From NCBI RefSeq assembly GCF_963676685.1, contig NC_092349.1, positions 18,042,001 to 18,106,000 on the forward strand: DNA of 64,000 nt, given 5' to 3'. The notes under the pieces are model-generated. The model made no database searches, was not told the origin of the DNA, and saw only the letters and a program-made list of their open reading frames with translations. Within the stretch, counting starts at the first letter, position 1. Each line of letters starts with the position of its first letter. This stretch comes from Mytilus edulis. Taxonomy: Eukaryota. The position numbers and the translations under genes are program-made. Shown here one piece after another: positions 1-63,730 of this stretch.

Positions 1-1185
1 TCAGACCCTTTTACAGAAAATAACGGAATATGGAGTAAATGTGCACGAAACCTAATCGCACACAAAGTCAATGCATAAAAAATACTAATGATCAATCATT
101 TGGTCAAAGTTGCTGGAGGGTCTTCAACAATAAAAGAATCATTTATACCGTAAAACAGGGTCAAGTGTGCCTAGTGTCGACTTAAGCAGTACTAGTATTT
201 AAAGCATAATACTGCACTGTCACTATATTTCAATCTAGTCATAAAAATATCACCAAAGTTTAAGCACAATACAAGACTTAAACATACAGACAGATCCGGT
301 ATTAATGATCATGACAATTACGAATTTTGCTTTTTCCTACATATCGGTCTTTTAATGTTGACCATAAAACCTTCAAGTCTTAAAATACAATAAGTCTATG
401 TTTTTGCTTTCAGACCAGAATATTGTCGAAAAAAAAGCTAAAAAAAAATTGCAATTTAATGTCAGAAAGAGTCTGAGAAACGCTCAGAATGCACGTTTTT
501 GCGTTAGTTTTCTCAGAGCTTCTGGGGGCCTTGAGCGACCCCAAGAAGCTCTGATGCCAAATTTTTTTCGCCTCACTCCGCTCGCCGATATATTTTGCCT
601 CACTATTCGACTTGGGATTTCGTCCTTAAATATCTTACTTTTTTGAAATGGTAAATAACAATAGTTTTATTTGTTCAATCAATTTCAAGAAAGCAAATGT
701 TTTGTAATAAGTAATTACGTTCAAAAGGAAGGTTTGCATACCTATAAATTGTGTAAAGAAAGAACATTTTGATGGTTAAATAAAAAAGTTAAACAAGTTT
801 TACATTCAAATGAAGTAAAAGAACAAGCATTTATAAAACATTATTGCGATTTCGAAGTGGTTTGTTAATATTTAAAGGTTAATACAATTCAAAAGCCTTA
901 TTGCTATTCACATTAATTATGACATGTATGGTTCATTTCTACATATATCAATGAATTATCACTTCCCAGTAGTCAGCACTTTTTGTGTTGACATGAATTG
1001 TCATTGTTATGGTTATATTTATAAATTTACTATTTACAAAATTGTGGAATTTATGAAATACTAAGGCTTTTCTACCTCAGGCATAGATTACCTTAGCTGT
1101 ATTTGGCAAAACTTTTAGGAATTTTGGTTCTCAATGCTCTTCAACTTCGTACTTTATTTGGCATTTTTAACTTTTTGGGATTCGA

Positions 1186-1308: not shown

Positions 1309-4300
1309 CTTATTCTGTTGTGCATTCCCTTTGATCATGTTCACAGCGGCATTTTCAGGTTCCATTGCTGCTCTAGGCATGTCCATTTCCATCAGCCAGC
1401 TGCTACCAACATATCCTTCAAACCCATAGACTGTACTCTTCAAATGACTGGCATGGTCTTTCTTTAGTATCAGTGCCTAAAACGTTAGTTCTACTACATG
1501 ATATTGGTGATTTTGGTTTAATTTTGAGTGTATCCTAAGGGAACAACCAGTGGGAGAGATATATTATAAAAAAGGAATTTCACTATACATTATTGTGTTA
1601 ACTTTTAAAAATAAGATTGATAGTGATGAAAAACTAAATAAAATTGTTTGCACTATGACTCAGACAAAACAAGAGTGTGTCCATAGTACACGGATGCCCC
1701 ACTCCCACTATCATTTTCTATGTTCAGTGGACCCTGAAATTGGGGTAAAAACTTTAATTTGGAATTGAAATTAGATCATATCATAGGGAACATGTGTACT
1801 AAGTTTCAAGTTGATGTAACTTTAACTTCATCAAAAACTACCTTGACCAAAAACTTTAACCTGAACTTTGCACTATCATTTTCTATGTTCAGTGGACCAT
1901 GAAATTGGGGTCAAAACTATAATTTGGCATTAAAATTAGAAAGATCATATCATGGGGAACATGTGTATTAAGTTTCAAGTTGATTGGACTTCAGCTTCAT
2001 CAAAAACTACCTCGACCGAAAACTTTAACCGGATGGACGAACGGAGGCACAGACGGACGGACGGACGGACGGACGGACGGACGAACGGAGGCACAGACCA
2101 GAAAACATACTGCCCCTCTACTATCGTAGGTGGGGCATAAAAATCATACTCCCCTTTTAAATTGAAATGGTTGCTCCCTAATGAGGCCGTTTAGAGCTAA
2201 TCTGGAACCTTATCATCAAGGAGCAGGTATAACAGAAATGGACTGCTCAAACTTAAGTCCAATGACCATCCCTGTCAGTTACTCATATGATGCAATCTCC
2301 GACCGTGCGAGGGCTGTATGGCCAGTCAAGGTCGTTAAACACTTCAATTTGAATATGATGTAATTGCAATTTTCTAATTTGCTATATATAGGTATTTGTT
2401 GCTTAAACACTAAAAGATAACAATATGTCGTTTCCCATTTCTTTTCTCGAAAGGCTTTTGATCCCCGAGTATGGAAATACTTACACAGACCTTAATTCAA
2501 AATAAGTGGGTTTAAGCGTTTTTGATAATGTTAAGAAAGAGAATCGGGCACACCAAGTTTTTATTTTCAATTCATTGAGAAAAAAAAATTGTTTTTACTA
2601 TGTTGACATATTTGTTTGTCTTAAAGCAATTAAAATTATAACACAACGCTAACTGTTTTTAACCAATTTTTGACATTTTACCTAGTATCATGTCTGTTGT
2701 TTTTGTTCACACATTGTTGTCAATTAATGGACTTTGATACGACTGTCAAGTGAGAGATGTGGCTAGCTATAAAACCACGTTTAATCAACCATTTTCTACG
2801 TAAGCCTGTACCTAGTCTGGAATATGACAGTTGTGCTTCCATTCGTTAGATGTGTTTAAGCTTTTGATTTTGCCATTTGACAAAGGACTTTCCGTTTAGA
2901 GTACGTATAAGACTTGTATTTATGCTTTTTATGCCCCACCTACGATAGTAGAGGGGCATTATGTTTTCTGGTCTGTGCGTCCGTTCGTCCGTCCGTCCGT
3001 CCGTTCGTTCGTTCGTCCGTTCGTCCGTTTGTCCCTTTTAAGGTTAAAGTTTTTGGTCAAGGTAGTTTTTGATCAAGTTGAAGTCCAATCGACTTCAAAC
3101 TTGGTACACATGTTCCCTATGATATGATCTTTCTAATTTTAATGCCAAATTAGACTTTTGACCCCAATTTCACGGTCCACTAAACATAGAAAATGAAAGT
3201 GGGAGTTTCAGGTTAAAGTTTTTGGTCAAGGTAGTTTTTGATAAAATTGAAGTCCAATCAACTTGAAACTTAGTACATATGTTCCCTATAGTATAATCTT
3301 TCTAATTTTAATGCCAAATTAGATTATTACCCAATTTCACGGTCCAGGGAACAAAGGATAGTGCAAGTGGGGCATCCGTGTACTTTGGACACATTCTTGT
3401 TCTAAATAAATTAACATTACCAAAACATCATTTTGTTGTCGTCAACGCAGAGAAAATACTATAAATTTGAGAATGGAAATGGGGAATGTGTCAAAGAGAC
3501 AACAACCCGATCAAAGAACAGAAAATGGATTTTCAGTACAGCGAAAAGATCCCGCATCCGGAGGTGTGCTTCGACTGGATTCTAACCATAAATGTGTACT
3601 AGTTCAGTGGTAATGGACGTCATTCTTGACTCCGAAATATATAAATAAACTAAAATTAAAAATCATGCACGACTAACACAGATCAGAGACTCATGATTTG
3701 GCTGAGGCGCATCAATACTTTAGTATACTTACATGATGAGGCATTGTTACCATCATTAGTTCACCCATAGGATTATCTGCATGTTGATTGTTTGGATTCC
3801 AATCAAAGCTGACAAAAGTTTTATTCACCTCCTCGGAAACACAATAGGCCGCTGAGGGTTTGTAGGAGTAAACACCCAAATATTTATCTAAATCGTTGTT
3901 ATGTGTCGTATCCCCACGTGGGCTAGCACCAAGGTATGCCAGTTGGACGATGCCATTGTATTTCCCGCCACTTGTTGGAGTAAAGTTTATCGTACTTTGA
4001 CCTTGATTGACATGGGGAGTAACTGGTTGTGAAAAATAAAGCAAATACTTTCTTGTTTGATTTGGAAGCTCATCGCCAGGTTCATTTAACTCCATAATGA
4101 ACTTCGATCCATGTTTGACTTGTACAGTCCCTGTTCCAGTGTTATGTGGAGCCTGGGTAGGGTTTGTTATTACTGGATTATGTGTTTGGACTGGGCTTTG
4201 TGTCGGCGCAACGGTTGGTGAAGGTGTATTTACACTTCCTGTAATAAGTAATGACGTTGATACTCAATAGCTTATATTATAAACTGAGGGTATTCTTTTT

Positions 4301-7300
4301 ATACACGTGAAACGAAATAATAAATATGATTCTAACATGACGTCTTTCAAACGCTTTGAGTACACACCCGTGGTAAAATATAAATATATTGCCTGGGCTA
4401 TTCCGATCGTACCCCACGTCATATGCCTGTTTGTGAATGAGGTACACGGCGTCATAGAACAATGACGTAAGAATATAAACATTTTATGGGAAAATACACG
4501 CTTGTGAAACCTAAAATTATGACAAGGACACGAACACAAACGATCCTAAAATGTGGAATAATAAGCCAATTTAAACCATATAAGTAAATTATCATTTAAA
4601 TTCATCCAAAACTATCCATCCATAAACCATATCCATTTTTTTTAAATTACAACTTACAACTCCCGTTAGCGCCATGTGTCGCATATTTTTTTTAATACGT
4701 TGTTGTAAATAGTTTCAGCATGTAACTAATTCAGTTTGCTCCGTTCTTTTACGCCAATTCAATAGTGCGTTTATTTATGTGAACGACAGTATTTGACTCA
4801 TCCTAGAGCGCTTTGATCCAAAAGAATTGCCGTATTTGTCCTATTAGAATCGAAATAATTCATGGGGGCCTGAATATGTCGTGATTTTACCACGGGTTGT
4901 CCCTTTATGCCGATATTTTATTCTAAGCGATGGCGATGGGTAAAATATTGGCATAAAGGGACAACCCGTGGTAAAATATTTGTCATAAAGGGCCAATCCG
5001 TGGAAAAATCACGATATATTCAAGCCCCCATTAATTATTTCCTAATTGTAACAGGACTTCCTTCAAACGCTTTGAGTATACACCCATGGTAAACTAAGAA
5101 TATATTGCTTGGGCTGTTCCGATCGTACTCCCACGTCATATGCTTTTTAATGAATGAGTTACACGACGTCATAGAACGATGACGTAAGAATTTAAGCATT
5201 TTACGGGAAAATACACGCTTATGAAACCGAAAATCATCACAAGGAAACGTAAACAAACGATGCTTAAATGTGGTATAGGCCAACTTATTTTTTATACATA
5301 TGATATATAATTATGAGTAAATTATCATTTAAAATCATCCAAAACTATCTAAATACGTTATTGTAAATAGGTTGAGCATGTCACTAATTCGGTTTGCTCC
5401 GTACTTTTACGCCTATTTAAAAGTACGTTTTTTCATGGGAACGGCAAATATTTGCCTCCACCTAGAGCGCTTTGATTCAAACGAATTGCCGTATTTGTCC
5501 TATTAGAATTGAAATAATTCATTGGGGCTTGAATATATCTATATCTATCGCTAGGGTAAAATATTTTGCTTAAAGGGCCAACCCGTGGTAAAATCACGAT
5601 ATATTCAAGCCCCCATGAATTATTTCTTAATCAACGTATATAGGTAGTTGATCTGTTGTTTATTCACTACATCACGCACTGAATGTTAAGTAAGGCCGTG
5701 TTCAGTAAACTGAAACATGTTTAAATGTGGTTTAATGTAATGTACACTAGTTTCACATTAAATTTGTTCACATCTATACACCTTGTTCAGTTACCTGTAC
5801 ATAAGGTGTAACACCACTAATGCAGGCCCGACCAGAAAGCACATACCAGAAAGTAGTACATAAAAATATGGCATGAAATTTAAAAAGGAGGGTACATTTT
5901 GCCTTTTTGTCAGATCGGAAGTACCTGTTTTGGTACATCCGAAGTTCCGGGAACCAGTTCTTTCTTATATGCCATGCAAGGTATGTTGATTTTTTCAGTA
6001 CATGACACCAGAAGGTGTTGCTTTGACATGCAATGATTGTCACTTCATTTGAACTTTTAAAGATAAAAGAGCTGTGACCACTCGAAATTGAGGAATTTAA
6101 CATAGAAACAATGGGGCCATTAATTAGTGGTGAAATTCCATAAGATTTGATCACGTAGGCTGCATCAGCGTGCTAACAGATCTAGACGAATAAACAGAAT
6201 CACTGGTACCTTTGATAACTATTGTAAACTATATGTCATTTAAATGTTCATTACGTAGAACAGAATTCAAATTTCGAACAACTTTTCTAGTATTTAGGGA
6301 AGGACTGTTTGACTTTAAAAAAGGGAGATGGGTTTTTCCACAATTTGACTAAAAAAAAAATCGAGTCATACAGATGATTAAAATGAACACATATTCCGAA
6401 TCCAAAGTTTCCCCATGCATTATAGTGTTAAATATTGAATTGCTACCATAAAAAAAAAAACTAAATATAAACTTTCGCGCGAGAAAAAATTCTGACAGAC
6501 TCAAGACCCCCCTTTTTTAAGTAAAGTGGTTGCTCCTTTAAGAAAGTCATTTTGGATGATTTGCAGTAGTTTAAATATCTCAATTACGCATTAAAAACGT
6601 AGGCTGCATCAGCGTGCTAACAGATCTAGACGAATAAACAGAATCACTACATTTCTATCTTTTCTGTTTGTTTCAAATGGTATTTTTTTCTCCAAGGTGT
6701 ATTTGGCAAAGGGAGGGGGTAAGTTTTTTTTATATTTCTAATTGTATTTTAACGGATCTGAGATACTACACATGCAAACAAACAATTAACCTCACCCTTT
6801 TTAAGTAATGCATTTATGAGTGAATGATCGTTGATTGAGTAAAGACCAGTGGCAAATATTTCTGTCAGTATGTTCCTCCAGTCGATTCGGGAAGACCTTT
6901 TCAAATGATATATGTGTTCGACAATGATGATAGATGAGTCTTGATAAGGGGTTAATAAGGCTACGTAAATTGTTTTCATAAAAAATAAATATATCAAGTT
7001 TAGAAAAATATTTCTGTAAAGAACTTTATCAATAAGTATTAATTTTATATAAAAACCGTTTCTTATTTTAAATAAACATGTGAAAATTAATGTTCTGGAT
7101 GCCTAGTTTTGTGTACACTTAACATACACAAGGCCTACATCGACTATCGACTGCATGTAGACAAAACAGGATTTAAACTACATGTAAACATATCAATGGG
7201 AACGTAATTATGTTTAGTTTAAGCGTGAGTTACACTAACACAACACCGAGTTTAGGTCTATTTGAACACGGCCTTAGTCTTGTAAAAAATAGTTGTCAGA

Positions 7301-10300
7301 AATATTCACATTCTTTTGATGTATTTCAGCTTTTGCTTTTGCTATTTGCTGTGACTTATGGGACTTTTTTCCCCCGGTTATTTCGGTATTTTTGTTATTT
7401 GAATTTGACATTACTTATATATGTCACATTACAGAAATTAGCATGACTTTAATGTGAGAAGTACGAATATTGAGGATCTCAAGGATTTTGTATGAAATTA
7501 TACCTCAAATGGAGCAAGAGACTTCATCAAAATTTCAAGCAATTTTTACCTCCATAGATGCAATGCAAATATTTATTGTATTATTATGTTAAAAAAATTG
7601 GGTACGATTTATAGTTTTTTGTCTTAATTAATATGCAGCCTGTGTATGCATACCTTAAACCAACTTTATCTATGGTATTATAAGTATTAAAATGTTAAAT
7701 TTTTTACATAACGATAGAGATATGCATGTTTCAGGAGCATGTTAGATGTCATTAAATCAGAGCGAGAGAACTTATTAACATTTATCTGAATGTCTGAAGC
7801 TCTACGAAAACTGAAGGTTTATTATATACTCGCCTCCACATGTTCCAGTGAGGGGTTGATCAATCCAGTTACCTACTGGAACTGTGGTACAACCTATGAA
7901 ATTAATTGCATAGCTGCAAAACAAAATTGGAAAAAGATATTGAAATTATAGAAATACTCATAAAAGATAACAGAGAAAAACACTATTTACACCAATTCAA
8001 ATGAAAGAAAAGCATTGAAATGAGGCGTCATAAAAAGTTCTACCACCCTTTTGATGAGAATATTGAATTAGAGCAAACGACTGATAGTTCTTCATTTGAT
8101 GTATTACGTGTTAATAAGACAATATTCATTTTTTCGTATTCCAAACTCATAATTGTTTTTGGTATGCATTTGAAAGAAACGCATAGTCAATGTTAATTCG
8201 TCGATGTACAGCAAAACACTATAATTTATGTTTAAATGTTATTGTATGATAGCAATGCATTTAAAGGTCAAAATGTCGTACCTGGGAAACAAGTGACAAG
8301 GGCATTATATTTGAAACTGTAAGATCAAAATGCTTTTCTTAACTATTTTGTTTGCGATTGACTGGATTCATATGAGCTCAGCTTAATTTGTTTTCTTTTT
8401 CAGATTCTTCAGGTAAGTTAAGACAATAGTAGTTTCCCAATGTTCAAATCCTTTAAATCGATACAAAAAACGAACTAAGTCGGTGTGTCGAAAGCGTAAG
8501 CGTCTTCTGCTTTGAATGCATGAACTGCCGTGCCAATCAAAAGTCAGTAAAACTTAACAAATTGAGGAATAAATTATTTGACGCGTATTTGGCTTTATGA
8601 ATTTTGGGTCCCTAATGTTCATCAACCTCGTACTTTATTTCGATGATACTTTAGTGATGCGAGAATCACTACTGGGTCTTTTAAAAACGAAACGCGCGAC
8701 CGGCGTACAAAATCATAAGTATGGGTTCTTTGATAGTTTTCTCTATACGACATAATCGGTAAGAATAAAGATAAGATGACTATTTCTTAAATTTGACGAC
8801 AGCGTTGAAGAAAATGTAAATGTAGCTAAAATACTTACTTGAAATTATTAGAAGAAGTTGTGAGTTTGATATGAACAAATTTCCCAGTACGTGTACAATG
8901 ATCCGGTTTACAATTGTACATTGCTGGTGGGTGGTGCCAAACATCTGAACCTTCCATTGCATATTGTATCTGAAAGAGAGGCGAAAGATACCAAAGGGAC
9001 GTTCAAATTAATAAGACGAAAATAAACTGAAACGCCATGGGGATGATATCAAGTGCTCCGCAAGGGTAAGCAGATCCTGCTTCATATGTGACACTCGTCC
9101 TGTTGTTCATGTTAGTACAAACTTGATCAAACTTGGTAATACGTGTGATTTGGTTGGTCACATTCGGGTGATAGAATCTCCAACAACCATAATGTTGTAT
9201 TTGTATTGAAATTGATTTGCATATTTTGGTATTAATATTGATTCATCGTATGGTCTTTCAATCGGAAATAAACACACATATTCTAAAATTAGTTGTTGGT
9301 ATGATACGGGTTACCAGTATGTTCATCTCATTTAATTTAGGATGGTATGGTACTTATCCTCTGCTTGATTTTCATATGATGAAACATATTTTTTAACAGA
9401 GCTTGCATGCATGTCAGTAACTGCCAGAAGTCCTTTGTTAATGTATGTACACCTGTAATCTTTCTCAGTTTCTTTTGTTACCAATTGGACTCGGACTTCT
9501 TTTAAACTGAGTTTTTCGTGCATATAGTGCTTTGTGTTCTTTTTTTACATGGCTTGATGTGTAGGCAAGGTTTGAGATCTCACAAAACATATTTAAACCC
9601 GCTGCATTTTTGCGCTTGTCCCTCTGGCAATTAAATGCTTGTAGAATTTTCATTTAAGTTCATTTATGTTTTTGACTTTAGTATTAACTGCAGTACTGAA
9701 CTAGTACACATTTTGGTCTAGTGACCAGCTGAAGCCCGCCTCCGGATACCTAGTTTTCCCGTCCTGTTGGAGATTCATTGGTAGCCTTCGGTTGTTTTCT
9801 GATCTTTGGTTGGGTTGTTGTCTCTTTGACACATTCCCCATTTCAATTCGAAATTTGAGCCCATTAACTAACCAACTTATGATGGCGAAATAGTACATTG
9901 ATTATTCGATGTAGTTATTATTTTTTAATTGCATTGGTTCAGTTTTACAATCTTCATTTTGAGCCTTGAAAAATATAATCAGTTTATTTAATAAAGCCTA
10001 AGCAGAATACTAAGTATATGACTGACCGCTTCAATAGGAATGTCATTTGAACCCAGATCAATAGTTATATCAATGTTTCTATTGACATCGCAGACGGCTG
10101 ATGCTGAAATGTCATCTGGGTGACAACTTTCACGCTTTTCATGCACTTCCTCGTTTGCGTCATATTCTGTATCCCTTTTACCACTACAAGTAACTTGCTC
10201 TGGGTTAGGGACCCAATTCCCAGGTAAAAGATAATGTCCGATGTAGTTTACAGCAAATGCCATTTGTCCTTCAAGATATATAAATGCAAGAGTTAAAACA

Positions 10301-13300
10301 AGTTAAAATGTCCTGTACCCAGTCAGGAATATGGCAGGTTTTATCTAGAGTTTGTTTCTATGTAAACTGGTGTTTGCATTTGTTGTAGTTCAGTGTTGTT
10401 TTTTTTTACAGAATTTTAAACCTTGTATCTATGACAAATTTATTTATTTGTTGTTCTGTTGTTTTTATTCAATAGTTGACGTGCCTACCTCGGTGTTTGT
10501 TTGTTACCCGGATCTAATTTGCGTTTTCGAATTATGACTAGTGATACTATATTAATCCACATTGTATGCTCTTATATTATGTTATCTTGATTGCGCCATT
10601 TGCATGGCGGATTACGCATGCATAACCGGAGACACTGACTCTTTCAATGCACTTATTTTTTTTTTATTTTTTTTTAATTCTATCGATTCCTTCATGTTAA
10701 TTTTACCTTGCGTTTTGAATAAATAAATTAGTACTGAACAACAGTAAATTTCTGTGTGACTACATATTTTGAAATGTTTGTAGGTCGCAATTTATTCAAA
10801 CTAAAATATGTTTCATTTTGATTGATTCTATGCCATTTTATTGAACGTTTATTTCAATCTACACACTAACTAGTATGTTATTACTACATATGGAAAGTAC
10901 TGTCAGAGTAAAAAAAACTTAATCTATTACATACCATGTGAATTAGGAATATTTATAGTGACTCGTTTATCTTCGTTAGACATATGACAGGAGTTCGTAT
11001 CGCAGTTACGCATTCCATGTTTCCCTGAACGCCAGTTTGACAACGAATTAACTGAATACTGTAAACGTGTAATGTCATGTATAGGTTTGTCGCTGTCTAG
11101 TGTGATATGCAGAGTTCCACCGCTGCATGTACCTGATAGATGGCCACTACCTCCATCAAATGCTGAAAGAGATGAGCATAAATGTGAAATAGTTTAAGAT
11201 AAAGAGATAATGTATAAATATATTCAAGAAATTCCACAGTGTAAACATTCCATTATCATATCTATCATAATTTATCGTCAACATGTTTGACAGATTTGCC
11301 ACTGGATGTTAAAGACAAAACATCAATTGATTAATCTTCTAAATTTAAGATCTGCTTTTGAAACGTTTTTAATCTATTAGTATTTATCAAACATAATTAA
11401 AACCACAATGTCTCGTTTACTTGTTATATGTATTTCAAACAGAAAAATGGGGAAATTTTTATGATATCATGGATATGTATTACTTCAAAAGTAGTCATCA
11501 TTAAAATAATCTCTCAAAATATGCTACGATAAAGTAGAGTAAAATCAATTCACTTGATTTCCATCAACGCAACACACAAGTTTTAAAAATAAATAATAAT
11601 GTTCCTTTGCGCTCGAAACGTAAACTCTGACAGGTGCCATTTGTGAAGATTTGTGATTTGTGGACTTCTTCTGTCCTTTGATTGATAATTAACCAAGTCC
11701 TTACCACCAACATATGTCACTACAACATGTTTATAAAGGTAAAATGAGGGCAAAACTGTGTGCTTTTGGAAAAGGGTTTGGTTCAATCTTTTTTGGCCAA
11801 ATAATATGAGTAAGATCATGGTGATTACATTTCATATAGTATGTCATTTTTCACATGTTTAGAACACGATATTGACAATAAATATGGCATTTCCTCACTT
11901 AGATTTTTGATGATACCATTTTGTTTTAATTACCAATATTAATTTGACTATTATAGTTTTTTTCATTCTTTAAAAAAATGTTTTTTGAGCAGATTTGTTC
12001 ACCTACCGTGGTATCCCTTAAATCTTACCTGATGCTTCTTTAGGACAGTCAAAGTGAGTCTGATGACCATTTATATTGCTTAAACAATATGGTTTAATTA
12101 CTGGGTCAGCATTTTTAAATATGTGGGTTAAAAGAGCAGAACCTCTGACCAACGGGACCTTCAAACAAACAAAAGAAAATTGGATGATAAATACGGGAAA
12201 GGAATTAAGAAAACGACCCGATCAGTATCACATCATACCGCTAAATACTAGCAACGTCATAAATTAATATTATTGTCACACGGTTTTGTCTAATGTTTAT
12301 GTCATATGTCTCGCTTGAAACCACAGAATCACAACCACAATAGATTGATTTATGACACTTTAACTTCTTTTGAATCGAGCGTCACTGATGCGTCTTGTGT
12401 AGATGCGTGGTCTGGCGCAAATACAAAATTTCAATCATTTTATCTATGATGAGTTTATTTCTTATAAACCCCATCAACAGTTGAAACAAAAGTCATTAAA
12501 AAAGTCAACGGGAAAAAGTTTCATAATATATATGTTTCATCGTACTAATGTCTTCGACAATGAAAAGCACATACAGTACAAACATGTCAATCATACCTCC
12601 ATTGTCCCACTATTTCCGTGGTATTCAAAGTTGGCAAATAAATCTCCAAAATCGGTCATTACAGGCTCCGAACTTCCAGATATTCCAATCCTCACTCCTG
12701 ATTTACCTGAATTGATAATAAACAAATCTCTAATTTAGCTACTTATTTATTTATATGCTTATTTTGATTTTTACAATATGAATTTAAGAGGAGTTTGGAT
12801 ATACCTGTATTAAAAATATTTCCTAAAAATGATTTATCCTTCTTTTTTTCGAAAACCTTCGAAGACATGCTTTTATCAGTAATTGTTTGCAGACTTTATT
12901 ATTTTATACCAGATATTTTTTTATTTTTTTTTCAAAAAGGATAGGCGGAAAATATGAAAGGAATAGTCAAACTCATCAGTCAAAATCGAACCGACAATGC
13001 CATGATAAAAAGCAACAAACGATCAAATGACAAACGTTCAGCATACAAAAACACAAACAATGTATGTATGAAATAAGTAAGCTTTCTTTTTCAATTTCGT
13101 TTTGAATATGTGATGTCGAGACTGGCTTTTGGCAAACGTTTCATTTATCTCACTTCATAATCTTTTTTTTTCATATAGTTCCGATAATAATTTGACGTGT
13201 AATATGTAGTTAGCAAAATTTTTCTGATTATATCTGAGTATAGTTTTTACCTGTGAATACCCCACCCTTGTTGCCATCTGGACCAGAGGTCATTTGTTTC

Positions 13301-16300
13301 ATATTTGTTCCAAGTGACCATATCTTATTCCAAGATTGTCCTGCAATACTAGCAGACTGCTGTAACATCATGTCAGATCTGTCAGGGTCGTACCATCTAT
13401 CTAAAGTATAGGCGTCATAGACCATACCTTCACTCTCCATTAAGGCTGAAAATGTGAAACATCCCCATTTGTCACAATATTAATTATTCTCCAAATTCAA
13501 AAAATATAAGCAGCAAACAATAAAAACATTTCAACGACGAAAAGCATAACAAAAAAGTCAGATCTGGCTGTTATTTGTAGGTCCTATTTGCATGGCCATT
13601 AAGCTTATAATGTCTTTCGATACCTATACATCATTAGTTATATTTTTCATTTTTGTCTTTGCACGTTCCTGATGACGATCTTAACCGTTTCCTTATGATA
13701 CATATGTTTAAGGATGTATAGTTCGTTTTTTAATTTTATCATTATCAATTATCAGTTTGAAAATGATGTTCCAATAATGTTTTTGTATATTTTCGGTTTA
13801 CCGCAATGCTAAACTAATACGACGAATTCATATTCGCTTACAGCGCCAAAAGTTGTATTAAATTGAAGAAGTCAAGCATTAAAAGGTCAACTGAAATATA
13901 CAGAAAGAATTAACAACAATTATAACATTTTGCCATTCAATCAAAATGTTGTAGCTAATGAAAAATTGTTGAATTAAGTTATTTTTGCTACAAAGGAATA
14001 CGTTAACCAATTTCTTAAGCTAGTTTATGACTATTTTTATTTCAAGTGTTTGAACTATGAATTCCATCATGCACTAATTCAATGTTCAACACGAAGTAGT
14101 CAAAATCAGAGACAAAAGATACCAGGCAATTACTATTTGTTAACAAAAGCCAATTTTTTAACATCATAATATAAACTCTCTAGTGCAATTTCACGTTATA
14201 AGGTTGATCTTTGGTGATCTGTTTGATTGATCTGTAACTTGTTGACGCAGCCGGTCATGTAATTTGCCGTTAAAGAATCTAATGCATTCTGGGTAATATT
14301 TTCATAAGCGTTCACCAAAACGTTGTGATTTGTTCAAAACGTTCTAAACAATGGAAATCCACCCAATGACGTAACGTCATTTTCATTTTGGAGTACGAAC
14401 AATGAGATTACCCACAGTCCTTTAGATTCTGATAAGGCGAATTCCTCGGTTTTGTTTGTTACCACATAATTATTGTCTTATCGTGATTTCAACATAGTTA
14501 AACTACCGTAGCCTTATTAAGCATTAGCTTTCGATTTTATTTTCACCGATTCGACTCAATATCTCAAAGTTTATTTAAAACATACTAAAACGTCTATTCA
14601 AATTTCAAACTTCCTAAACAAACAATTTATAAATTGTTGACGAATAATATGTATTATTTTGACTTATTACATTTAGTGTGATATGTCATATTTTTTTGTT
14701 CGAACCGTTATTCATCGAGTTGTTTTGATGTTCATCTTGTGGTTCTCGTTAAAATGTAACAACATTACGTATGCATTTCATAATAGACGTCATCTATTTT
14801 TAAAACTATCGAGATGATCTCCAACGAATTTCGTAAATCATATGACTAGAAATATGAATACAAATATTGCAGCACGTACAATCTAATAGTGACAATTGTT
14901 CGATGTCCATGCGCAAGTCCATGTCACAGTTAAGAATATGTAGTTCATCATTTTACCTGTATTTGAATAACTCGCATGAATACTGATTCGTCATCGTTTT
15001 TCTTTAGCTCTTTGGTAAAATTTAACCAAACCTGACTGCTTATAGAAATGTTAAAAATAAGATAAATTCATATTTTGATATTTTTTCAATTTCGTAACTA
15101 ATGCCCCTTTAATTTGGACGGGGAATTTATCACTTGCATAATGGTATAGACATTTACTATAATTTAAGGTATATTATTGTTGTCTCTCGACTATTTACTA
15201 AACGAAAGTGTATGATCTAATTATAATATATTTAAAAGATAGACTTTGCTGTACCTTCATATGGATATAAAATCATCGGAACAGGCGATGCTTTAATGGC
15301 ATTAGAAGCAAAGTGTTGAGTAGGTAGAGGGCGTTGTGATCGCAGGTTACCAGTTCTGTGAGGTGGTGCTTTCTGATTTAATTCATTATTTATTCCAAAT
15401 ATAGTTCCAGGATCGGCTGTATCTAGAGGAAGGTCTTCCAGTCGGTGGCAACCATTTGGTAATATACCAGCAACATTTTGTAATACACCAACTAAAATAT
15501 ATACATAATTTTATGATATAGAACAACGAAAAGTTAACATGGTTAATGCAACTTTCAATTTGTTATCAAATTAGCTCGCATAAAAAAATCAAATTCAATT
15601 TTATTACAAAATGTATATTTCAGATAAAATTGTTATTAGGGCGATTTCCAATCAAAGAGATATATTTGTCTACTAACTGAGCTCGGGACATCGATTGCCA
15701 AAGACGACGGTTTGTTTAACATGGTCTTCAAATCTATCCAATTGCAATAAAAAAAACTGTTTCGGTCTATACACATCCACGGCTTTCAAATCCGAAAGCG
15801 TTCCTGATGAGGGTAAATATAGAAAAGCGCTTCGGACGCATGAAATCATTAAACCTATAGTTTTCATAGTTTATAAAGAACTAATTTTGAACAATTAAAG
15901 TATTTCATTAATTATGGTGACTTGAGTAACACCGGTATCACTCAGATTACAATTCTACCTTGACAGGTAAGTTTGTATTTAGCCTATACAATACTTATTT
16001 AGCCTTGAGAATTGAAAGGTCAATTTATCCCATTCATACAATAGACGTTTACCTATAAGGGTCAGAATGGGGTTTACAGAATAGAGAATACACATGTAAT
16101 AGCAACAAATAAATAGAGAATAGAGAAAATGAACAACAAAATAAAGAATAGAGAATAATTTAATGGGGTGCAAAAGCATAAAGAATAACTGTGCAAAAAA
16201 AAAGGTTACTTAGCTAACTGTAATGCAATACTGATAATATAAATAAATGATCCAAGTACAGAATTGATAAATAATCTTGTAACACAAAGACTAAATAGTA

Positions 16301-18060
16301 AAATCCTTTTCATGAGAATTTTACAGAATGAGTTATTTTTAAGGCTATTAAAAGAAAAATGTCCTAAAAATTTAAAGAATACAGATATTAAAAAAACCAA
16401 TGCAGGTCCTCATGTCATTTACATTGTCAAAATATAGAACACATCTAGTCAAACTGGTTTTAAACTAGACATCTAGTAAAACTGGTTTGGTATAACTGAC
16501 TGTTTATTGCCTTAGATGTCTTTTTCACAGTGACCTTATGTGTTTGTGCTAAGAGTACATTGTACTGTCATATTTATTGATTTTCTGTTCGGACATGACC
16601 TACATTGGCTTGAGATTTCAACTGATATAAGTATAATAAATTAATATTTGGAATTTTATATCCTGGTTGATAATGTTTTTTGGGGAGCAAGATGTTTTCC
16701 TCATTCTTGTTCACATTATGATTATTTTAACATTTAAAGATAGAAAAAATGTCAGCTCTCATTTAAAATATTTTTCAACTACATAACAGAATAATAATCT
16801 CAGATATGGTGTAAACAAAAAACAAGACAGTGTAATGCAAGGATAGTCTATTTCTATAAAGTCAAGCAGATAGGTTTTTTTTATATCTAAAAAAAACTAC
16901 CATGTAAAGAAATATGCAAGTAAAAGGCCAAAAATATCCCCAAAAATTCAACATTAACAGATTTTTAACAATTAAATCAAGATGCACAAAGTTTTAAGCA
17001 TTGGTCAGAATATAGGGTTCTTTTGTACTTTAACAACATCACAATAACAATAAAGTGACCTTAATTTTGGACAAGGTAAATGGCATGAAGCCAAATTTAT
17101 CAACTTCTATTGTATGAATGGGATAAACTGACCTTTCAATTCTCAAGGCTAAATAAGTATTTTATAGGCTAAATACAAACTTACCTGTCAAGGTAGAATT
17201 GTAATCTGAGTGATACCGGTGTTACTCAAGTCACCATAAGTTTAAAATTTACTAGAAAGAATATCGCGAAAAATAAATAATAGAGAGGTCGGTTGAAAAG
17301 GGTTAACGCGAAATAAAGTATTCGCGAATATAAATATGTATTTCGGTATTAGTTAGAGGCTGTAACTTCGCCCCTCGACAGCTGATCAATGTATAACTCA
17401 TTTAACGGCTTTAAACACAGTAAGGCTTATTTAGTGTGTGGAGAAAAGAGATTTTCAAATTTACTAATAAATTTGTCCGTTTATAAATTTAAAAATTATT
17501 AAGTACCTAGGGTTTCAACTCCCTCAGGCAAAGTTGGCTTTAGATTAATTTGGCTATTTATTTTTGGTATTTTTGACATATAGCTCAATGTTTTCGGTTC
17601 TTATACATGTTATACATCTTCGGATTTCAAATGTTGGGCTTTGAGCGTTCCTGATGAAAGTAAATCCAGAAAAGCGCTTCGGACGCAAGAAATTAATAAA
17701 CGTGTTGTTTTCATTTTTTTTCTCAAACACTTGATTATGTAGCCAACATTTTATTCAAGACGTAGCTGTCAAATATTCATTCGCAAAACCAACGAATTAC
17801 CCTCGTTACAGTATTTTGGACTTGTTAATATATTCCTTTAAAACAATCAAGACCTTTCACACGCGATAAGCAATACAACATGTAAGTTAACAGCTTGTTT
17901 TCGGTACTGCTATTAAATATTGATTTGTATTAAGTTAATATGTTAATGCAAAACTGTGCATTATAAGTCTGTCACTTAAATTAAATTAATAAAATATGTT
18001 CACACGAAGTATAAAGGAATATATTAGAAGATACTTACATGTTACCACCAAGATCAACAT
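1309..18060 (-). CDS. Secreted glycoside hydrolase family 81-like endo-1,3-beta-glucanase, N-terminal 683 codons; 3' end lies beyond the left edge of the window
   Basis: Phase-consistent exons (minus): 18060-18039, 15491-15255, 13445-13251, 12706-12597, 12158-12029, 11162-10935, 10268-10027, 8969-8839, 7913-7834, 4238-3733, 1476-1309. Signal peptide MLILVVTFGVLQNVAG; GH81-like motifs RPLPTQHFASN...LYPYE, VPLVRGSALLTH, KFIMELN...QTRKYLLYFS, YNGIVQLAYL, LDKYLGVYS, LMMVTMPHH. The catalytic C-terminal region is not in the window. Confidence 0.8.
1668..2143 (+). mobile_element. Non-autonomous Helentron/HINE-like element with internal tandem repeats, (GACG)n microsatellite and terminal hairpin
   Basis: Two internal units of about 165 bp, (GGAC)n at 2033-2095, terminal hairpin TGCCCC...GGGGCA followed by A-run; sister copies at 2926-3401 (inverted), 20108-20339 and 29570-29661 (partial). 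Confidence 0.7.
2926..3401 (-). mobile_element. Inverted copy of the same HINE-like element
   Basis: Reverse complement of 1668-2143, including (CGTC/CGTT)n and the ATGCCCCACC...GAGGGGCAT hairpin. Confidence 0.7.
4340..5630. repeat. Two tandem diverged copies (about 700 bp and 580 bp) of an element ending in a long palindrome
   Basis: 4340-4880 aligns by eye with 5058-5540; hairpins at about 4853-5040 (ttttaccacgggttgtccctttatgcc / ggcataaagggacaacccgtggtaaaa) and 5512-5628. Confidence 0.7.
15798..15839 (+). ncRNA. Minimal hammerhead ribozyme-like motif (family B), stem II degenerate
   Basis: GCGUUC-CUGAUGA-ggguaaauaua-GAAA-A-GCGC-U-UC-GGACGC. Confidence 0.55.
15912..17239. mobile_element. 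Non-autonomous DNA transposon with about 134-bp terminal inverted repeats, in GH81 intron 1
   Basis: 15912-16045 is the near-perfect reverse complement of 17106-17239; TA at both ends; no internal coding capacity. Confidence 0.8.
17645..17686 (+). ncRNA. Minimal hammerhead ribozyme-like motif (family B) at the end of a dispersed repeat (about 17450-17720)
   Basis: GCGUUC-CUGAUGA-aaguaaaucca-GAAA-A-GCGC-U-UC-GGACGC; stem I pairs over 6 bp. Confidence 0.6.
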
Positions 18061-24021: not shown

Positions 24022-27000
24022 TCATGTTGTTTTTAAGAAGTCTGGTATAGAACTGGTTGTACCACATGCTGGATCATGACACATTACCCCATTCCCACCA
24101 ACACTTGTTTCCCAACATTCAAAGTTCTGCTTTTTAAGCTCTATTTCTACAGTTTGTAATATTTCTTCTGTTGTTTCTAAAATTAGAAAAAAAAGTTAAT
24201 TGTATTCCTGTCTAAAAGGTTGGTTACAGTCATCTTGTCTAATTCTACGGAATTTTTAATGTATTTAATGAAATCAACATGCCTTCATTAGCTAACATAA
24301 TTGTTAACACAAATCATACCTAATATTCAAATTACTATATATTTTTTTTGGAGGTCTCAGATAAAGTCATGTTTGACACATCATTATGGTAAAAAAAAAA
24401 AGATTTGTGAAAATGAGTTCATACTTCTTATTTTGAAATGGATTTCTCTGAATTAAACTTTGTAAAGTAGTTTTTCAATGCATTAAAATTAATATTAATC
24501 CTTTCATATAACTTTTGAAGAATTGATAGCCATATTTTTGGCGAACTAATGCTCTTAGGACTTTGTTGATTTATGCCATTAAAATTGCCCTTATCATGTT
24601 TATGTCCTACGTCCTTTTGTGTCATTACAATTGACACTGTTTGGTTCTATAATTTTACTAATATGTGCTTGGACCATTGGTTATCCTGTTTGAATAGTGT
24701 TACACTAGGGCCGTTTATAGCTTGCTGTTCCCTCTGAGCCAAGGCTTTTTGTTGAAGGCCATACTTTGACATATAATTGTTAACTTTCTATACATTATTA
24801 CTTGGATGGAGAGTTATCTCATACCACATCTTCTGATTTATATACTGTAAATTCAGAAATTATTGCGTGCATTTATTATTGCAATTTTCTGGTTTTAGAC
24901 TGAAATGCAATATTGAGAAAAATCCTATTTAAATCATATAAAAATTACAAATGCGAGTTTAAATTGTTACGATTATAACTAGTCACTTGGATGGAGAGCT
25001 GTGTTGATGGCTCTCATACTACATCTTCATTTTTATATTTAGTGATGGTTGAGTGCTGCCACATACCTGGAGAAATCAAACAGAAAGCACAGCCACCACC
25101 TCCAGCTCCAGTCAGTTTACAATGGAGTCCATACTGTTGACATGTTTTACAAACACTTTCCAATGACGGGTGACTTACACCTAGAAACCTCAGTAAGTCA
25201 TGATTCATATCTATCAAATCCTGTAATAAATATAAAAATTCAAGACAGAGTTATCTTCTCTTTGTTTTAGACTGTTTCACTCCCTTTGCTTAATCCTCAC
25301 ATATCTTAAGAGTGCATACAATTTATAATTGTCATTTTCATTTTACATATTTTTGTATGCTGCTGCAATCCCTGAGACAAATCATTGATGACCAAAACTA
25401 ACAAAGACCATAAATGAACTAGATGATTACTGCTGCCAGAAAGCCACTGAAACAGAAAAATTCTCAAATAGCAATCAGAAAACTTTTAACTGATTATTTT
25501 GTAAATTGATCTAAGCATATCAGCAGCATTAGACATTCATTTAGTAATGATTGCAATGTGTTCTTTTCCCTCAATTTTATTTGTTAACAAACCTTCAATT
25601 TCTTATAACAGGAAGTGACATCACAATGGTTCCCTGTCATGTCTGATAAAACAGCTTCACATCTGCTAACTATGGCTTCCATAGAGTTTAACACTGGTGT
25701 TATAATATCTTCATACTGGAAGCAGAAATTTAATAAATATAACAAATAAATAAATAATAAGAGGTGATACACTTTTTACAAGTGCCATTCCTAACCTTCT
25801 CTTGTCTGGGTACACCCTTTTTCTAAATTCAAAATCAGCCAATCAAAATGATAAAATCTTTACCAATCATCTGAGCAATGTTATTGTAACCAAAAAATAA
25901 TGACATTTTAAAACTTTTTATAACCTGCAATGCAAATTGAGACTGGCTGTGTGGTAACCTATATAAACACTTGCATTTTTCATATTATATTGCAATAGAT
26001 AATCTCAAAATTATGTCAATTGTTCAACTATCACAATATTAAGCAATTGTGAAGGCAAAAATTTCTGAATTAACATTATTGTGGATTTAGCTATTTTTAT
26101 GGGTATCAATCTTCATAGAATAAAAGAAAATTGTATTAAAGCAACTGTGGATTCATTATTATTATCGTTGGATACCAAATTTCCTGGGTTTTGGTGGGGA
26201 CAGGTGAACCACTAATTTAAATGTTCAACGAATTACAAATTTTATCTAATGTTGTATGCAGACTTTTGCAAAACCAAGAAAATACATCTCCACGAAAAGG
26301 CAAGTTTTCTGCAATCCACACAAAGTGGTACCAACGAAAATAAATGAATCCACAGTTATACTTGAATTTGTGGTTTTTCAAAAGTCTGCACCCAATGCAA
26401 GCCTACAGATAAATTGTACTTTGTTTAATGTTTAAATTTGTGGTCCATCTCTACCCAGAAAATCCTAGAACAATGTCAGCAAATGAACATAAATGATTCA
26501 ACAGTATACTGTAAACCAACTTATTTTCGCGAGCGATTTATTTTGGCAAATTTCGCGGATATAAATCGTTGCCAATATGTAAACCTTGGATCTTTCCTTA
26601 TCAAACTTCATCAAGTAAATCAGAAAATCGCGAAATTATTTAGTCGCGAAGTGGTCAACATAGGGTAAAATGCGAAATAAAGTATCCGCGAAAATAAGTT
26701 GGTTTACAGTATTCTCTCATTATAGCCATTCCAGAGCAAGAAACTCTGTAATATTTAAACATTTGTAATAATTCCTTTCAACCTTTTCATTACTGTGGAT
26801 TCATTATCATTCTTTGGGTACCAATTTTCATGGTTTTTGTGGGTACAGGTGAACCATAAATTCAAATCTTCAACCAATTACAAATTTTCTATAGGCTTTC
26901 TATACAGATATTGGAAAAACCACAAAATCAAATACCCACGAAAACGGGTTTTCCTCAATCCACGAAAAATAAATGAATCCACAGTAACGCATCATTTACC

Positions 27001-30000
27001 ATTTGATATTTCCTTCTGACTCCTGCCACTAAATCTTTAGTACACCGTGGAATCTTTGTGTTGATCAATAATATTCTCAGATTTGGTATTCTACAACAAA
27101 CACTTTAAATTCAGAATAGAATATGAGCATTTATCATGATTAGGTCTGTTTGAGTAAAAAAATTAGGTCTGTTTGGGTCGAAAATAAACAGACAGTCCCA
27201 TGGTTATAATTCAAAAAGAGCAACTGACAAACAATAGTACACAAAGCACAACTTAAAACTGAGCAACATGAACCCCACCAAATACTGGGGGGAACTCAAA
27301 TGAATTTACTGTTATTAGGAAATATTCACAATCACTATCAAACAAAATTTGGAGCTTGTTTATGCTTTTGTTTTGTGTAGAAATGTTTGTAGCCGTCTCA
27401 TTCATGTTAATCGTAGAGGCTCCTTTTATGCAAATTCTTATTATAAATAGGTACTTTGTGTTGCATATTTATAATAAATTTTATGACATAATTTTCGAAT
27501 TTCTATATATGTGGAAGATGCATTTAGTAATTTAATAATCATGAAAAAGAGGACCACACTACGACTTTGACGATTAAAACATTTCAATGGTCTTCTTTTA
27601 CACAGAATTTCTAGAAGGATAAACCAGATAGTGATAGAGTCTTTAAACTTTCTGAGGGAAAAGTCAACTTTACCTTTAAGAGCCCTTTGCTCGATTGCTT
27701 TTATCCGGTTTATAATGGTGTTTTTCGTTCATCAATATCTTATTTTATTGTTTTAAACAGTACAGTTGTATATTAGTCAATATTTCAAGATGACAATGTA
27801 AGTTGGACTTCATGCAAGCAAATCAAATTGGTCAAGTTTGTGGACTTTTTAAATACTTTCTACCCAAAATTATAACCATAGAATATATACATTGTACTTC
27901 ATATATATGAAAACTTACTTGTCTAGTTTGTGGACTGTTCCTGACTTCAGTTTAATTGCTTTACCTGGAATTGTAAAAAAAGAAGTCCTTTGTATGTTTT
28001 GGAAATCCAGTTTATCTAGTACAGAATGTTTTTATTTGTTGCTGAGCTTTTGTCATCTTAGTTTTCAAAATCATTGGATCATAATTTAGTCTCTTTCATG
28101 GCTATATTTTCTCTACCTTCTTAGTATGCACTGTAAACTAGATTTAAACTTGTTCATGAATGATGATTTTAATTGATTTTGTTCTTGAATCTTTATCAGC
28201 ATATCTGTGCAGAGCTTACCATATGTTGCTATAGAATTGTCAATCCCAGAAGGTGTCCCATGATTCAATGTTTCACCCATGAATGCCCATTTATTTATAA
28301 GTTCAAGGTCATCAGACTTCCAAATATTATCACTGCCAGGTGCTGATACATTCCCAGTCAATATTAAAAATGCAGAGGACAAACAGACAGAAAATCCAGC
28401 AGATGAACCAAGTCCAGCTCCGATTGGCAGTTCTGATTTGACCTTTAGTTCAATTCCCTGCTTCCTGTAATGAATAAATAAATCTTATTTTTTCCTGCAA
28501 TGTAATAAAAATAGCATTTAAATGTCATAATAAACTTGAGAATGGAAATGAGGAATGTGTCAAAGAGACAACAACTCGACCAAAGAGCGGAAAATAGCAG
28601 AGGTTTACACAAAACTTATACCTTGCAATTGTTTAATGCATTCCAAATTTAACATAACACACTCCAAATCAGTTAATTTGAACCTCAGATAAGTTTTATA
28701 TTTCTTCTGGTCCCTTCAACTTCAACTTAACGAGATTTGAAAATATTATGATATCAAATATAAAGCACTTATAAGTTGACAATCTATTTTAGATCATGTT
28801 TATACGCCAATAAAATGTTTTGATTTGAATGTGTTGAATTGCTTGTCTTTTTTTTTAAAAACAATTATAAATTTTGTCCATTTTGAGTTTTCATAAGTTT
28901 GAATATCAATAAAATCATGAAAATATCAAATCAAAGCAAAAGGAATATAATTCTTTTCAATTTATGATACATATCCTTCATATGTAAATGGTGTGTATCT
29001 TTAAAATAAGAAGGATGAAATGTGAAATTATTTTTTTTTTTTATGGAAGAAAACAGCAACTATTTATGAATTATCTCCCTTGGTTCCATGGATTATGATA
29101 TTTCTTTGAACCATTACTACTAATGAAACTTTCCTTGACACATTTTCAATTTCCATTCTCATTTTTATTTCCAATTATTTCTGAATTAAATAGGAAAACA
29201 ATATAAATGTATTAGTCATAAATCATAGTTTGTTTTTTTTTAAATTTTAAACAGATTTTATTAATAATCAACTGTTACATCAATCCTAAGTTGTCCAGAA
29301 AAGCAACTAAGGGGCCCTGGTTTTTACAGTCTCGTTTGTTAGGGGAAAAGCAAATGAGAAATCATAGTTTGATTATACAAAAACACCAGAAATTGTGTGT
29401 ACTGTACCTGTTCTTACACAAAGACAGATAGATGTAAAGGAATACTATGGAGGCTGTATTGTTGATTTCTGTTGCTCCACTTCCAGCTATTTTTTTCAAC
29501 TGTTTAATCACATCTTCTGTTGGTGGATTGGGATTCAAAATTTCACAACCTAAAAGATGCATAAAAAGAATATGTCCCAAGTACACGGATGCCCCATACT
29601 CACTATCATTTTCTATGTTCAGTGGACCGTGAAAATGGGGTAAAAACTCTTATTTGGCATTCGTAAAGTAAAAATTGACGATAGACAGTTTTTAACTAGG
29701 TTGTTCCTGATCAGTTTTATTCTAATACCACTTCACATCCTTTAAACATGTTAAAGATTAAAACTTGTACCTTTCAATGTTCCTGGTAAAGGTAAAACAG
29801 GAATAAGGTTAATGTTATCATGAATTTCTAAAAAATGTGAATAGTTTGACAAAACTTTTATAACCTATTGTTTTTTATTATTAAAACAAGAGTTCCAAAT
29901 GGTGAACATGGTGAAATTGAAATCATCCCTTCGTAAATTTTACAGACGCCATTACGAGTTGGTTGACCGTTATGGAATATCCCTTTCACGGATGATATCA

Positions 30001-50081: not shown

Positions 50082-50239
50082 CTTTCTTAAAAAATAAAAT
50101 TCCACCCTTAAGAAAGTGTTGAATATCCCGGAATGCGGTTTAGATTGGACTATATATCGGAATTTCTTTTACAGCAACAACGTTATTAAACTATTGCAAA
50201 AACCTCGTGGGCGTTTTATATCAATTGATGTTCACTCTT

Positions 50240-63500: not shown

Positions 63501-63730
63501 GAGCGTATACCCCACAAAGACAGGATACAGATATACATGAAAATTACGATAGCCATTTATTCAAAGGTTCAAATTTCGCTGGTGCAACCTCAAAATTCAA
63601 TATCGTTTTCTATAAGAGACCTCATGGTACAGGGGTTCGTCAGTATGTTTACAGAACTTACTTCTGTGTCGGAACCTTAAATGACGTCACTAGTTGTTTG
63701 CATAAGATTATGACGGCTGTTCCAAAATAA
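60542..63730 (+). CDS. Secreted His-rich uncharacterised protein (about 409 aa, 4 exons) with bacterial-like motifs
   Basis: Exons 60542-60608 (start and first exon tentative; signal-like MQVFGIWIVLYMSETHS), 61120-61312, 61677-62055, 63140-63730; phases 1/2/0 match. AATAAA at 63747-63752. Confidence 0.8.

What the first reader, a model, noticed from the sequence alone, without database searches (positions are those of the whole stretch)
7834..11162. Two tandem copies of an unrecognised ~95-aa Cys-containing module inserted inside the GH81-like protein
Seen: module 1 (SGTCSGGTLHITLDSDKPIHDITRLQYSVNSLSNW...MRNCDTNSC...VTINIP...FAVNYIGHYLLPGNWVPNPEQVTCSG) and module 2 (SAVCDVNRNIDITIDLGSNDIPIEAIQYAMEGSDVW...MYNCKPDHC...VHIKLT...YAINFIGCTTVPVGNWIDQPLTGTCGG) share four Cys, QY, two Trp, MxNC and AxNxIG. 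A Pro/Thr linker follows (about 4238-4140). They lie between the PLVRGS and KFxxxLN motifs, which are close together in the GH81 enzymes I recall. Inference: a disulfide-bonded carbohydrate-binding module for beta-glucan/laminarin that I cannot assign to a named family.
Basis: partly seen in the sequence, partly recalled or inferred. Interest (0 to 1): 0.7.

Follow-up and report, generated by a model that had tools for sequence, protein, structure and literature searches.

The report
Unnamed module inside mussel glucanase
A blue-mussel enzyme of a family that digests beta-1,3-glucan (the storage sugar of algae) carries two copies of a small unnamed domain, found here only in the animal versions of this enzyme, that likely helps it grip the sugar and is likely freed by a protease cut between the copies.

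Summary
Confirmed. The window encodes a spliced GH81 beta-1,3-glucanase (identical to a Mytilus edulis record, 1057 aa). Two 99/98-aa repeats (30% identical) sit in a roughly 290-residue insertion in its N-terminal domain. The domain has no Pfam, NCBIfam or PDB sequence match. It recurs as 70 copies (1-3 per protein) in 34 of 36 GH81 homologues examined, from molluscs, brachiopods, an annelid, echinoderms, a hemichordate and amphioxus, and in 0 of 120 bacterial GH81 ORFs. AlphaFold2 (pLDDT 97) gives an Ig/FnIII-like sandwich. The beta-glucan binder CBM56 (Z 8.4-8.5) ties with ordinary FnIII domains and has no sequence link, so binding is untested. New here: a KR/RR convertase-type site follows copy 1 in 25 of 34 proteins, against 0 of 36 later copies and 2.5% of background windows. 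This predicts a two-chain enzyme with tethered modules. Best reading: a new carbohydrate-binding module family (about 0.5); the main rival is a structural spacer. The scan noted this module before in a rock oyster (e1-9587637).

The parts
18039..18060 (-). First coding exon; start of the predicted signal peptide (P0001 1-7)
   Evidence: (joint 15488-18039 in X2), hydropathy
12029..15488 (-). Four exons (15488-15255, 13445-13251, 12706-12597, 12158-12029): first half of the GH81 N-terminal beta domain, with PLVRGS at 12155-12138 and conserved C213 and C226
10183..11145 (-). Module 1 (P0001 238-336), split by a phase-1 intron 10934-10269; C244, Q266, W275, M282, C285, C290, A313, N315, P323, W326, P330, C335
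10132..10182 (-). G-KR ... KR acidic spacer (337-353): predicted proprotein-convertase site(s)
7835..10110 (-). Module 2 (P0001 361-458), split by introns 10026-8970 (phase 0) and 8838-7914 (phase 2); extra Cys356 and Cys440 seen only in Mytilus
4239..7833 (-). Phase-1 intron with a non-canonical GC donor (GC-AG) closing the module block
4105..4238 (-). Pro/Thr/Ser-rich linker (459-503)
3733..4104 (-). Second half of the GH81 N-terminal domain, from the KFIMELN strand; PF03639 match; C591
1309..1476 (-). Last exon inside the window (628-683). The catalytic PF17652 domain (D791, E864, E868) is encoded by seven further exons left of the window, in L001

Best explanation
The two repeats are copies of an unnamed, animal-GH81-specific domain, predicted to fold as a disulfide-held Ig-like sandwich, that likely acts as a carbohydrate-binding module keeping a secreted digestive beta-1,3-glucanase on algal or fungal glucan. 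Shown: the gene is spliced, the catalytic motifs are intact, the domain is inserted in a loop of the N-terminal beta domain, copy number varies from 1 to 3, and a dibasic site follows copy 1. Predicted: a beta-sandwich with disulfides C244-C335 and C285-C290. Inferred: (1) near-invariant Q266 and N315, which strand alternation places on the outer face of one sheet, form the sugar site together with W275 and W326; (2) a proprotein convertase cuts at KR338-339 and KR352-353, giving chains of about 35 and 78 kDa that stay together through the shared beta domain and probably one disulfide to C591; (3) the cut turns a looped-in insertion into two terminal tethered modules, copy 2 hanging on the 45-residue Pro/Thr linker as CBMs usually do; (4) the modules raise activity on insoluble or helical glucan more than on soluble laminarin, as CBM56 does for bacterial GH81.
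For: Independent, tandem, variable-copy domain: 70 copies in 34 of 36 proteins. Restricted to animal GH81-like sequences: 56 of 59 hits among 1.84 billion representatives and 11 of 11 hits. Q 67/68, N 67/68, W326 66/68 and an aromatic at 275 in 67/68, with Q and N at outward positions of two strands. Three CBM56 chains among the top 14 fold matches (Z 8.4-8.5, rmsd 2.1-2.6, 78-79 aligned), and the top match is an accessory domain of a chitinase (Z 9.5, rmsd 1.9, 83 aligned). Low-complexity Pro/Thr/Ser-rich linkers follow the last copy, long in molluscs. Bacterial GH81s carry CBM56 or CBM6 (4 of 26 scanned), and deleting CBM56 lowers curdlan activity 2.4-3-fold (PMC9609564, passages). Mollusc GH81 is expressed mainly in hepatopancreas (PMC7560691 table). 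KR/RR after copy 1 in 25 of 34 proteins, 0 of 36 after later copies, 57 of 2278 background windows.
Against: No binding or cleavage data exist here. CBM56 ties with FnIII domains of adhesion proteins and receptors (Z 8.5-9.0), and Z 7-8 is common for unassigned models (note). hhalign to a 5-sequence CBM56 profile and to one CBM39 sequence is null (Prob 0.1; shuffled median score 10.9 against observed 8.9), whereas CBM56 against CBM39 scores 21.6. The authors of the top fold match judged ChiW Ig-1 too far from the cleft to bind chitin and proposed a linker or scaffold role (PMC5132251, passages). The invariant Trp, Asn and Gln could equally be packing the C-C' and F-G loops over the two small Ala; no coordinates were available to check exposure. 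The dibasic site is absent in 6 of 6 echinoderm proteins, the hemichordate, one unnamed protein and one mollusc model, so cleavage is not universal. Related proteins are not independent counts.
Confidence: 0.5

Rival explanations
1. The domain is a structural spacer or stabiliser: copy 1 packs on the enzyme core and protects it in the gut, and the extra copies are passive duplicates.
For: Copy 1 is always present and forms one side of a 98/98 branch across phyla. It has its own conserved positions (G1 97%, H17 76%, T19 76%, Y83 94%) and is joined to the core by a short conserved DGGxG stretch, as a fixed interface would be. The top fold match was read as a scaffold. Ig/FnIII domains are common spacers in glycosidases (general knowledge).
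Against: Copy 2 has been kept since before the protostome-deuterostome split if descent was vertical. It holds the same Q/W/N/W set (97% each) although it hangs on a long flexible linker, and it stays 40% identical among molluscs against 13-24% for the linkers.
Confidence: 0.25
2. The domain binds protein, not sugar: it anchors the enzyme to the crystalline-style or mucus matrix, or to an immune partner after glucan is sensed.
For: FnIII domains of receptors and adhesion proteins score as high as CBM56. Echinoderm orthologues add an N-terminal membrane anchor (6 of 6) and Kunitz domains (4 of 5 scanned), which shows that localisation matters. The only non-animal sequence echo is bacterial OmpL47-type surface repeats.
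Against: The OmpL47 echo is at most 12.8 bits per domain, lacks the Cys, and was picked by the search itself. The domain was not found in any non-GH81 animal protein.
Confidence: 0.15
3. The insertion is a zymogen switch: uncut modules block the cleft or strain the beta domain until a convertase cuts at KR.
For: The conserved dibasic site, often double and flanking a variable spacer, with Gly before the basic run in 17 of 25, looks like proprotein processing.
Against: Neither module would be released, since both stay covalently on a chain. Echinoderm enzymes lack the site, yet most keep the catalytic motifs. A beta-1,3-glucanase has no obvious self-substrate in an animal (general knowledge).
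Confidence: 0.1

Closest known systems
GH81 endo-beta-1,3-glucanases (PDB 4k35/5xbz, 6fop, BH0236 5t4a/5v1w)
   Same: PF03639 and PF17652 above cut-off; NDHHFH and ExxxE motifs; E 1e-21 to 1e-15 to solved chains.
   Different: The animal enzymes form their own clade (100/100, 13 rows) and have 451-729 residues between the LVRG strand and DHH, against 240-350 in 75 bacterial proteins and 286 in lettuce. Bacterial accessory modules seen here are terminal, not inserted.
CBM56 (PF22184; PDB 5t7a, 6a6c, 5h9y)
   Same: Similar size, Ig-like sandwich (Z 8.4-8.5), attached to GH81 beta-1,3-glucanases.
   Different: No sequence match. The module has four invariant Cys, which the five CBM56 domains aligned here lack within the core. 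It has Gln, Ala and Asn where by-eye strand register puts His, an aromatic and Thr in CBM56. It is inserted mid-domain.
CBM39 / betaGRP-GNBP3 N-terminal domain (PF15886)
   Same: About 100-aa Ig-fold beta-1,3-glucan binder of invertebrates (PMC7915573); one clam GH81 model (P0034) carries a CBM39 at its N-terminus.
   Different: No sequence match; not among the 50 rows shown by the fold search (inconclusive).
ChiW Ig-1 domain (PDB 5gzt 467-558) and FnIII domains
   Same: Best fold matches: Z 9.5, rmsd 1.9, 83 aligned; FnIII Z 8.5-9.0.
   Different: 4-11% identity; no PF00041 match; shared fold only.
OmpL47-type bacterial repeat (NCBIfam NF047446)
   Same: Weak likeness over profile positions about 10-75, the B-C strands and following Trp.
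   Different: At most 12.8 bits per domain, no Cys, hhalign Prob 14-53%; the animal proteins do not match NF047446.

Membership tests
GH81 (host enzyme) | N-terminal beta domain PF03639 and catalytic domain PF17652 above gathering score | tested here: met
   54.5 and 188 bits against 25.6
GH81 (host enzyme) | Conserved Asp (NDHH) and ExxxE acidic residues (their catalytic roles are recalled, not from a call) | tested here: met
   D791, E864, E868 in P0001; Asp in 22 of 23 rows and ExxxE in 22 of 23 rows of A2
GH81 (host enzyme) | Endo-beta-1,3-glucanase activity | not testable with these tools
   needs assay
CBM56 | Ig-like beta-sandwich of about 90 aa | tested here: met
   Z 8.5, rmsd 2.1, 78 aligned to 5t7a; tied with FnIII
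CBM56 | Sequence membership (PF22184 or profile match) | tested here: not met
   0 of 33 copies at E<=1; hhalign Prob 0.11 with a shallow 5-sequence profile
CBM56 | Binds beta-1,3-glucan | not testable with these tools
   needs binding assay
CBM39 | Sequence membership (PF15886) | tested here: not met
   0 of 33 copies; hhalign to the single CBM39 of P0034, Prob 0.13
CBM39 | Same fold as betaGRP N-terminal domain | tested here: inconclusive
   not among the 50 rows shown
Fibronectin type III (PF00041) | Sequence membership | tested here: not met
   0 of 33; hhalign Prob 0.8 to five bacterial FnIII
Fibronectin type III (PF00041) | Sandwich topology | tested here: met
   Z up to 9.0, rmsd 2.4-3.0
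OmpL47-type repeat (NF047446) | Match to the NCBIfam model | tested here: not met
   0 of 4 animal proteins at E<=0.1
Proprotein-convertase substrates | Secretory signal and KR/RR site in a variable linker | tested here: met
   hydrophobic N-terminus by hydropathy only; site in 25 of 34; linker 13% identical
Proprotein-convertase substrates | Actual cleavage in vivo | not testable with these tools
   needs proteomics or gels

The most novel reading that the evidence does not exclude
The module founds a new, animal-specific carbohydrate-binding module family for helical beta-1,3-glucan. It entered a loop of GH81 and duplicated before protostomes and deuterostomes split, and most lophotrochozoans and amphioxus cut the enzyme with a proprotein convertase inside the insertion, so that the mature glucanase is a disulfide-linked two-chain enzyme with a tethered binding arm on each chain.
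Probability: 0.3. Interest if true: 0.72.

Novelty: new variant of a known kind. Interest (0 to 1): 0.52.

Why it matters
Laminarin and chrysolaminarin are main foods of filter feeders and grazers. The characterised mollusc glucanases described in the passages read here are GH16 (PMC7551256), and the searches found no biochemical study of an animal GH81. A small, well-folded, easily expressed domain with a clear set of residues to mutate makes a new CBM family directly testable and could give a beta-glucan probe. The predicted two-chain maturation also tells biochemists to look for bands of about 35 and 78 kDa instead of 115 kDa.

Tried and rejected
Single-sequence AlphaFold2 of the whole protein was useless (pLDDT 32). 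Foldseek found no match at E<=0.001 and was swamped by nanobodies; the second look at those rows gave Z at most 8.0. CBM39 structures were not among the 50 rows shown, which excludes nothing. The ESM Atlas gave no hit for module 1 and only unnamed or sub-threshold rows for P0053. Pfam on 33 copies gave 14 scattered families, best E 0.013 in one member; PDB sequences best E 0.32. Exon shuffling: the module block is flanked by phase-1 introns, but 5 of the 9 introns between the ten exons tested are phase 1, so this is weak. Raw-read run X24 (about 18% read) showed no depth over the module exons and none of the joints; its tissue is unknown. A docking test of module 1 on the core could not be run because the complex predictor was not available, so that question is open. 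The CBM56 primary paper is not held and the supplement of PMC7560691 could not be read. Artefact or mis-annotation was rejected on the spliced contigs and the orthologues.
Full report
Locus. The window is AT-rich, intron-containing DNA at G000:C6:18042001-18106000 of a 1.37-Gb genome. An exon of module 1 retrieves one protein, P0001, at 100% identity; the source names it an uncharacterized protein of Mytilus edulis, XP_071178751.1, 1057 aa. It maps to 17 exons on the - strand from 18060 to beyond the left end of the window. Ten window exons translate to 674 of 674 matching residues. Single contigs from runs X1, X8 and X2 (three studies; X8 on record as RNA, the other two guessed) join all module exons; the raw-read run X24 did not cover them. 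Searches of the own genome with the downstream GH81 exon and with the module 1 exon each returned only this locus.

Host enzyme. P0001 matches PF17652 (188 bits) and PF03639 (54.5 bits, two stretches) and eight solved GH81 sequences. D791, E864 and E868 lie in the motifs conserved across the alignment; their catalytic roles are recalled. In a tree of 40 catalytic-domain rows (13 animal, 1 plant, 26 bacterial; P0040 dropped because the cutting motif did not match), the animal rows form one side of a 100/100 branch on a long stem, next to lettuce and a Sorangium protein. No fungal rows were included, so the origin is not settled.

Observation. The repeats are residues 238-336 and 361-458, 30% identical, far above shuffles; mollusc profiles of the two align at Prob 99.3. 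The distance from the LVRG strand to DHH is 451 residues with one module, 561-635 with two and 702-729 with three (31 of 34 proteins measurable). It is 240-350 in 75 of 76 long bacterial ORFs that could be anchored and 286 in lettuce. The module profile finds nothing in 120 bacterial GH81 ORFs (best E 2.2).

Family. An iterated profile finds 70 copies in 34 of 36 proteins: one copy in two Lingula proteins, two in 28 proteins, three in Lingula, Owenia, Glandiceps and Branchiostoma. The two misses are a partial record and the plant protein. Against 1.84 billion representatives the profile gives 59 hits. Of these, 56 are known animal GH81s or pieces that match them by BLAST; many are short unnamed fragments and I did not show for each that it lies in a GH81 gene. 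The other three are bacterial OmpL47-type repeat proteins with at most 12.8 bits per domain. A second search gave 11 hits, all GH81-like. In a tree of 68 complete copies, all 33 first copies form one side of a 98/98 branch, so the duplication is older than the split of these phyla if descent was vertical. No Pfam, NCBIfam or PDB sequence family matches.

Fold. AlphaFold2 on the 33-row alignment gives pLDDT 97.0 and pTM 0.87, with strands at 2-8, 11-17, 28-34, 53-56, 61-66, 71-79, 83-85 and 94-98. The wide structural search ranks ChiW Ig-1 first (Z 9.5, rmsd 1.9, 83 aligned), then receptor FnIII domains and a GH76 accessory domain (8.6-9.0), and three CBM56 chains (8.4-8.5). Rows within 1 Z are tied, so the fold is Ig/FnIII-like and does not single out CBM56. 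Profile comparison with five CBM56 domains taken from the bacterial loci and with one CBM39 is null. Among 68 complete copies the four Cys are in 67-68, Q29 in 67, A76 in 66, N78 in 67, W89 in 66, P93 in 66 and W38 in 59, aromatic in 67. Hydrophobic alternation puts Q29, A31, A76 and N78 on the outer face of the two strands; this is inference, since no coordinates were available. Two Trp with a Gln and an Asn on one face fit a sugar site, but they also fit loops packed on a sheet.

New feature. A KR or RR pair lies within 14 residues after copy 1 in 20 of 21 mollusc, 3 of 3 brachiopod, 1 of 1 annelid and 1 of 1 amphioxus proteins, and in 0 of 6 echinoderm, 0 of 1 hemichordate and 0 of 1 unnamed proteins. 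It follows 0 of 36 later copies and occurs in 57 of 2278 background windows. The mollusc miss (P0029) also lacks the linker and the start of copy 2, which suggests a gene-model gap. The linker itself is only 13% identical, so the basic pair is what is conserved. The echinoderm proteins that lack it have an internal hydrophobic anchor instead of a signal peptide (6 of 6). The single-module Lingula proteins have an RRRR run between the module and the returning strand. Three conserved non-module Cys precede the site (22, 213, 226) and C591 follows it in the same domain, so an interchain disulfide is likely. An Ig-type domain has its ends at opposite poles (general knowledge), and a cut would relieve the need to loop back.

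Mechanism and rivals. The most likely reading (0.5) is a tethered carbohydrate-binding module on a secreted digestive glucanase, matured by a convertase. The rivals are a scaffold (0.25), a protein anchor (0.15) and a zymogen switch (0.1). The binding role rests on context, conservation pattern and analogy, not on a match to a known CBM.

Literature seen. PMC7560691 (passages) lists GH81 in 4 of 7 mollusc genomes, hepatopancreas-biased, and says 25% carried a CBM; its supplement could not be read and may bear on domain annotation. PMC11083476 (one table row) reports a secreted GH81 in potworm and earthworms. PMC12198962 (one passage) notes a bacterial-type GH81 in E. affinis. PMC9609564, PMC7915573, PMC5132251 and PMC7551256 were read as passages. 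Nine searches showed no listing or passage describing this insertion or the dibasic site; subscription journals are largely outside the library.

Verdict. It works most likely like CBM56 without being a member of it. Novelty: new variant of a known kind; interest 0.52.

Noticed in passing
window 7833-4239 (-): The intron closing the module block uses a GC donor (GC-AG), supported by three spliced contigs.
   Followed up: yes
P0001 C356 and C440 (module 2 and the stretch before it): Two extra Cys present in 1 of 22 animal rows (the Mytilus row) and in other Mytilus records; likely a genus-specific third disulfide on copy 2.
   Followed up: partly
P0034 (Mactra) 20-113; P0038 (Lingula) 41-90: One clam GH81 model adds an N-terminal CBM39 on a Thr-rich linker; one Lingula model has a weak CBM14-like stretch (E 0.16). 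Gene-model fusions were not excluded.
   Followed up: no
P0040-P0043, P0045, P0047 (echinoderms): Orthologues look like type II membrane proteins, most with Kunitz domains before the glucanase, and lack the dibasic site; P0040 has Asn in place of the conserved Asp.
   Followed up: partly
L030 (Sorangium sp. So ce388) 1904-4069 (-): This myxobacterial GH81 is closer to the animal catalytic domain (168 bits) than lettuce (138) or the other bacteria scored (109 or less), and groups with the eukaryote rows.
   Followed up: partly
window 61654-62061 and 63137-63727 (+): Two open stretches (136 and 197 aa) that look like exons of a protein with no Pfam match.
   Followed up: no
window 25017-28484 (-): Exons with GHMP kinase N and C domains, likely mevalonate kinase (the name is inferred).
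   Followed up: no
window 48897-50168 (-): Single 424-aa open frame of a Cys-loop ligand-gated ion channel subunit (PF02931, PF02932).
   Followed up: no
L027, L029, L032, L037, L047, L075, L081 (actinobacterial GH81): About 270-450 residues after the catalytic domain have no Pfam match at E<=1e-4; possibly further unnamed accessory modules.
   Followed up: no
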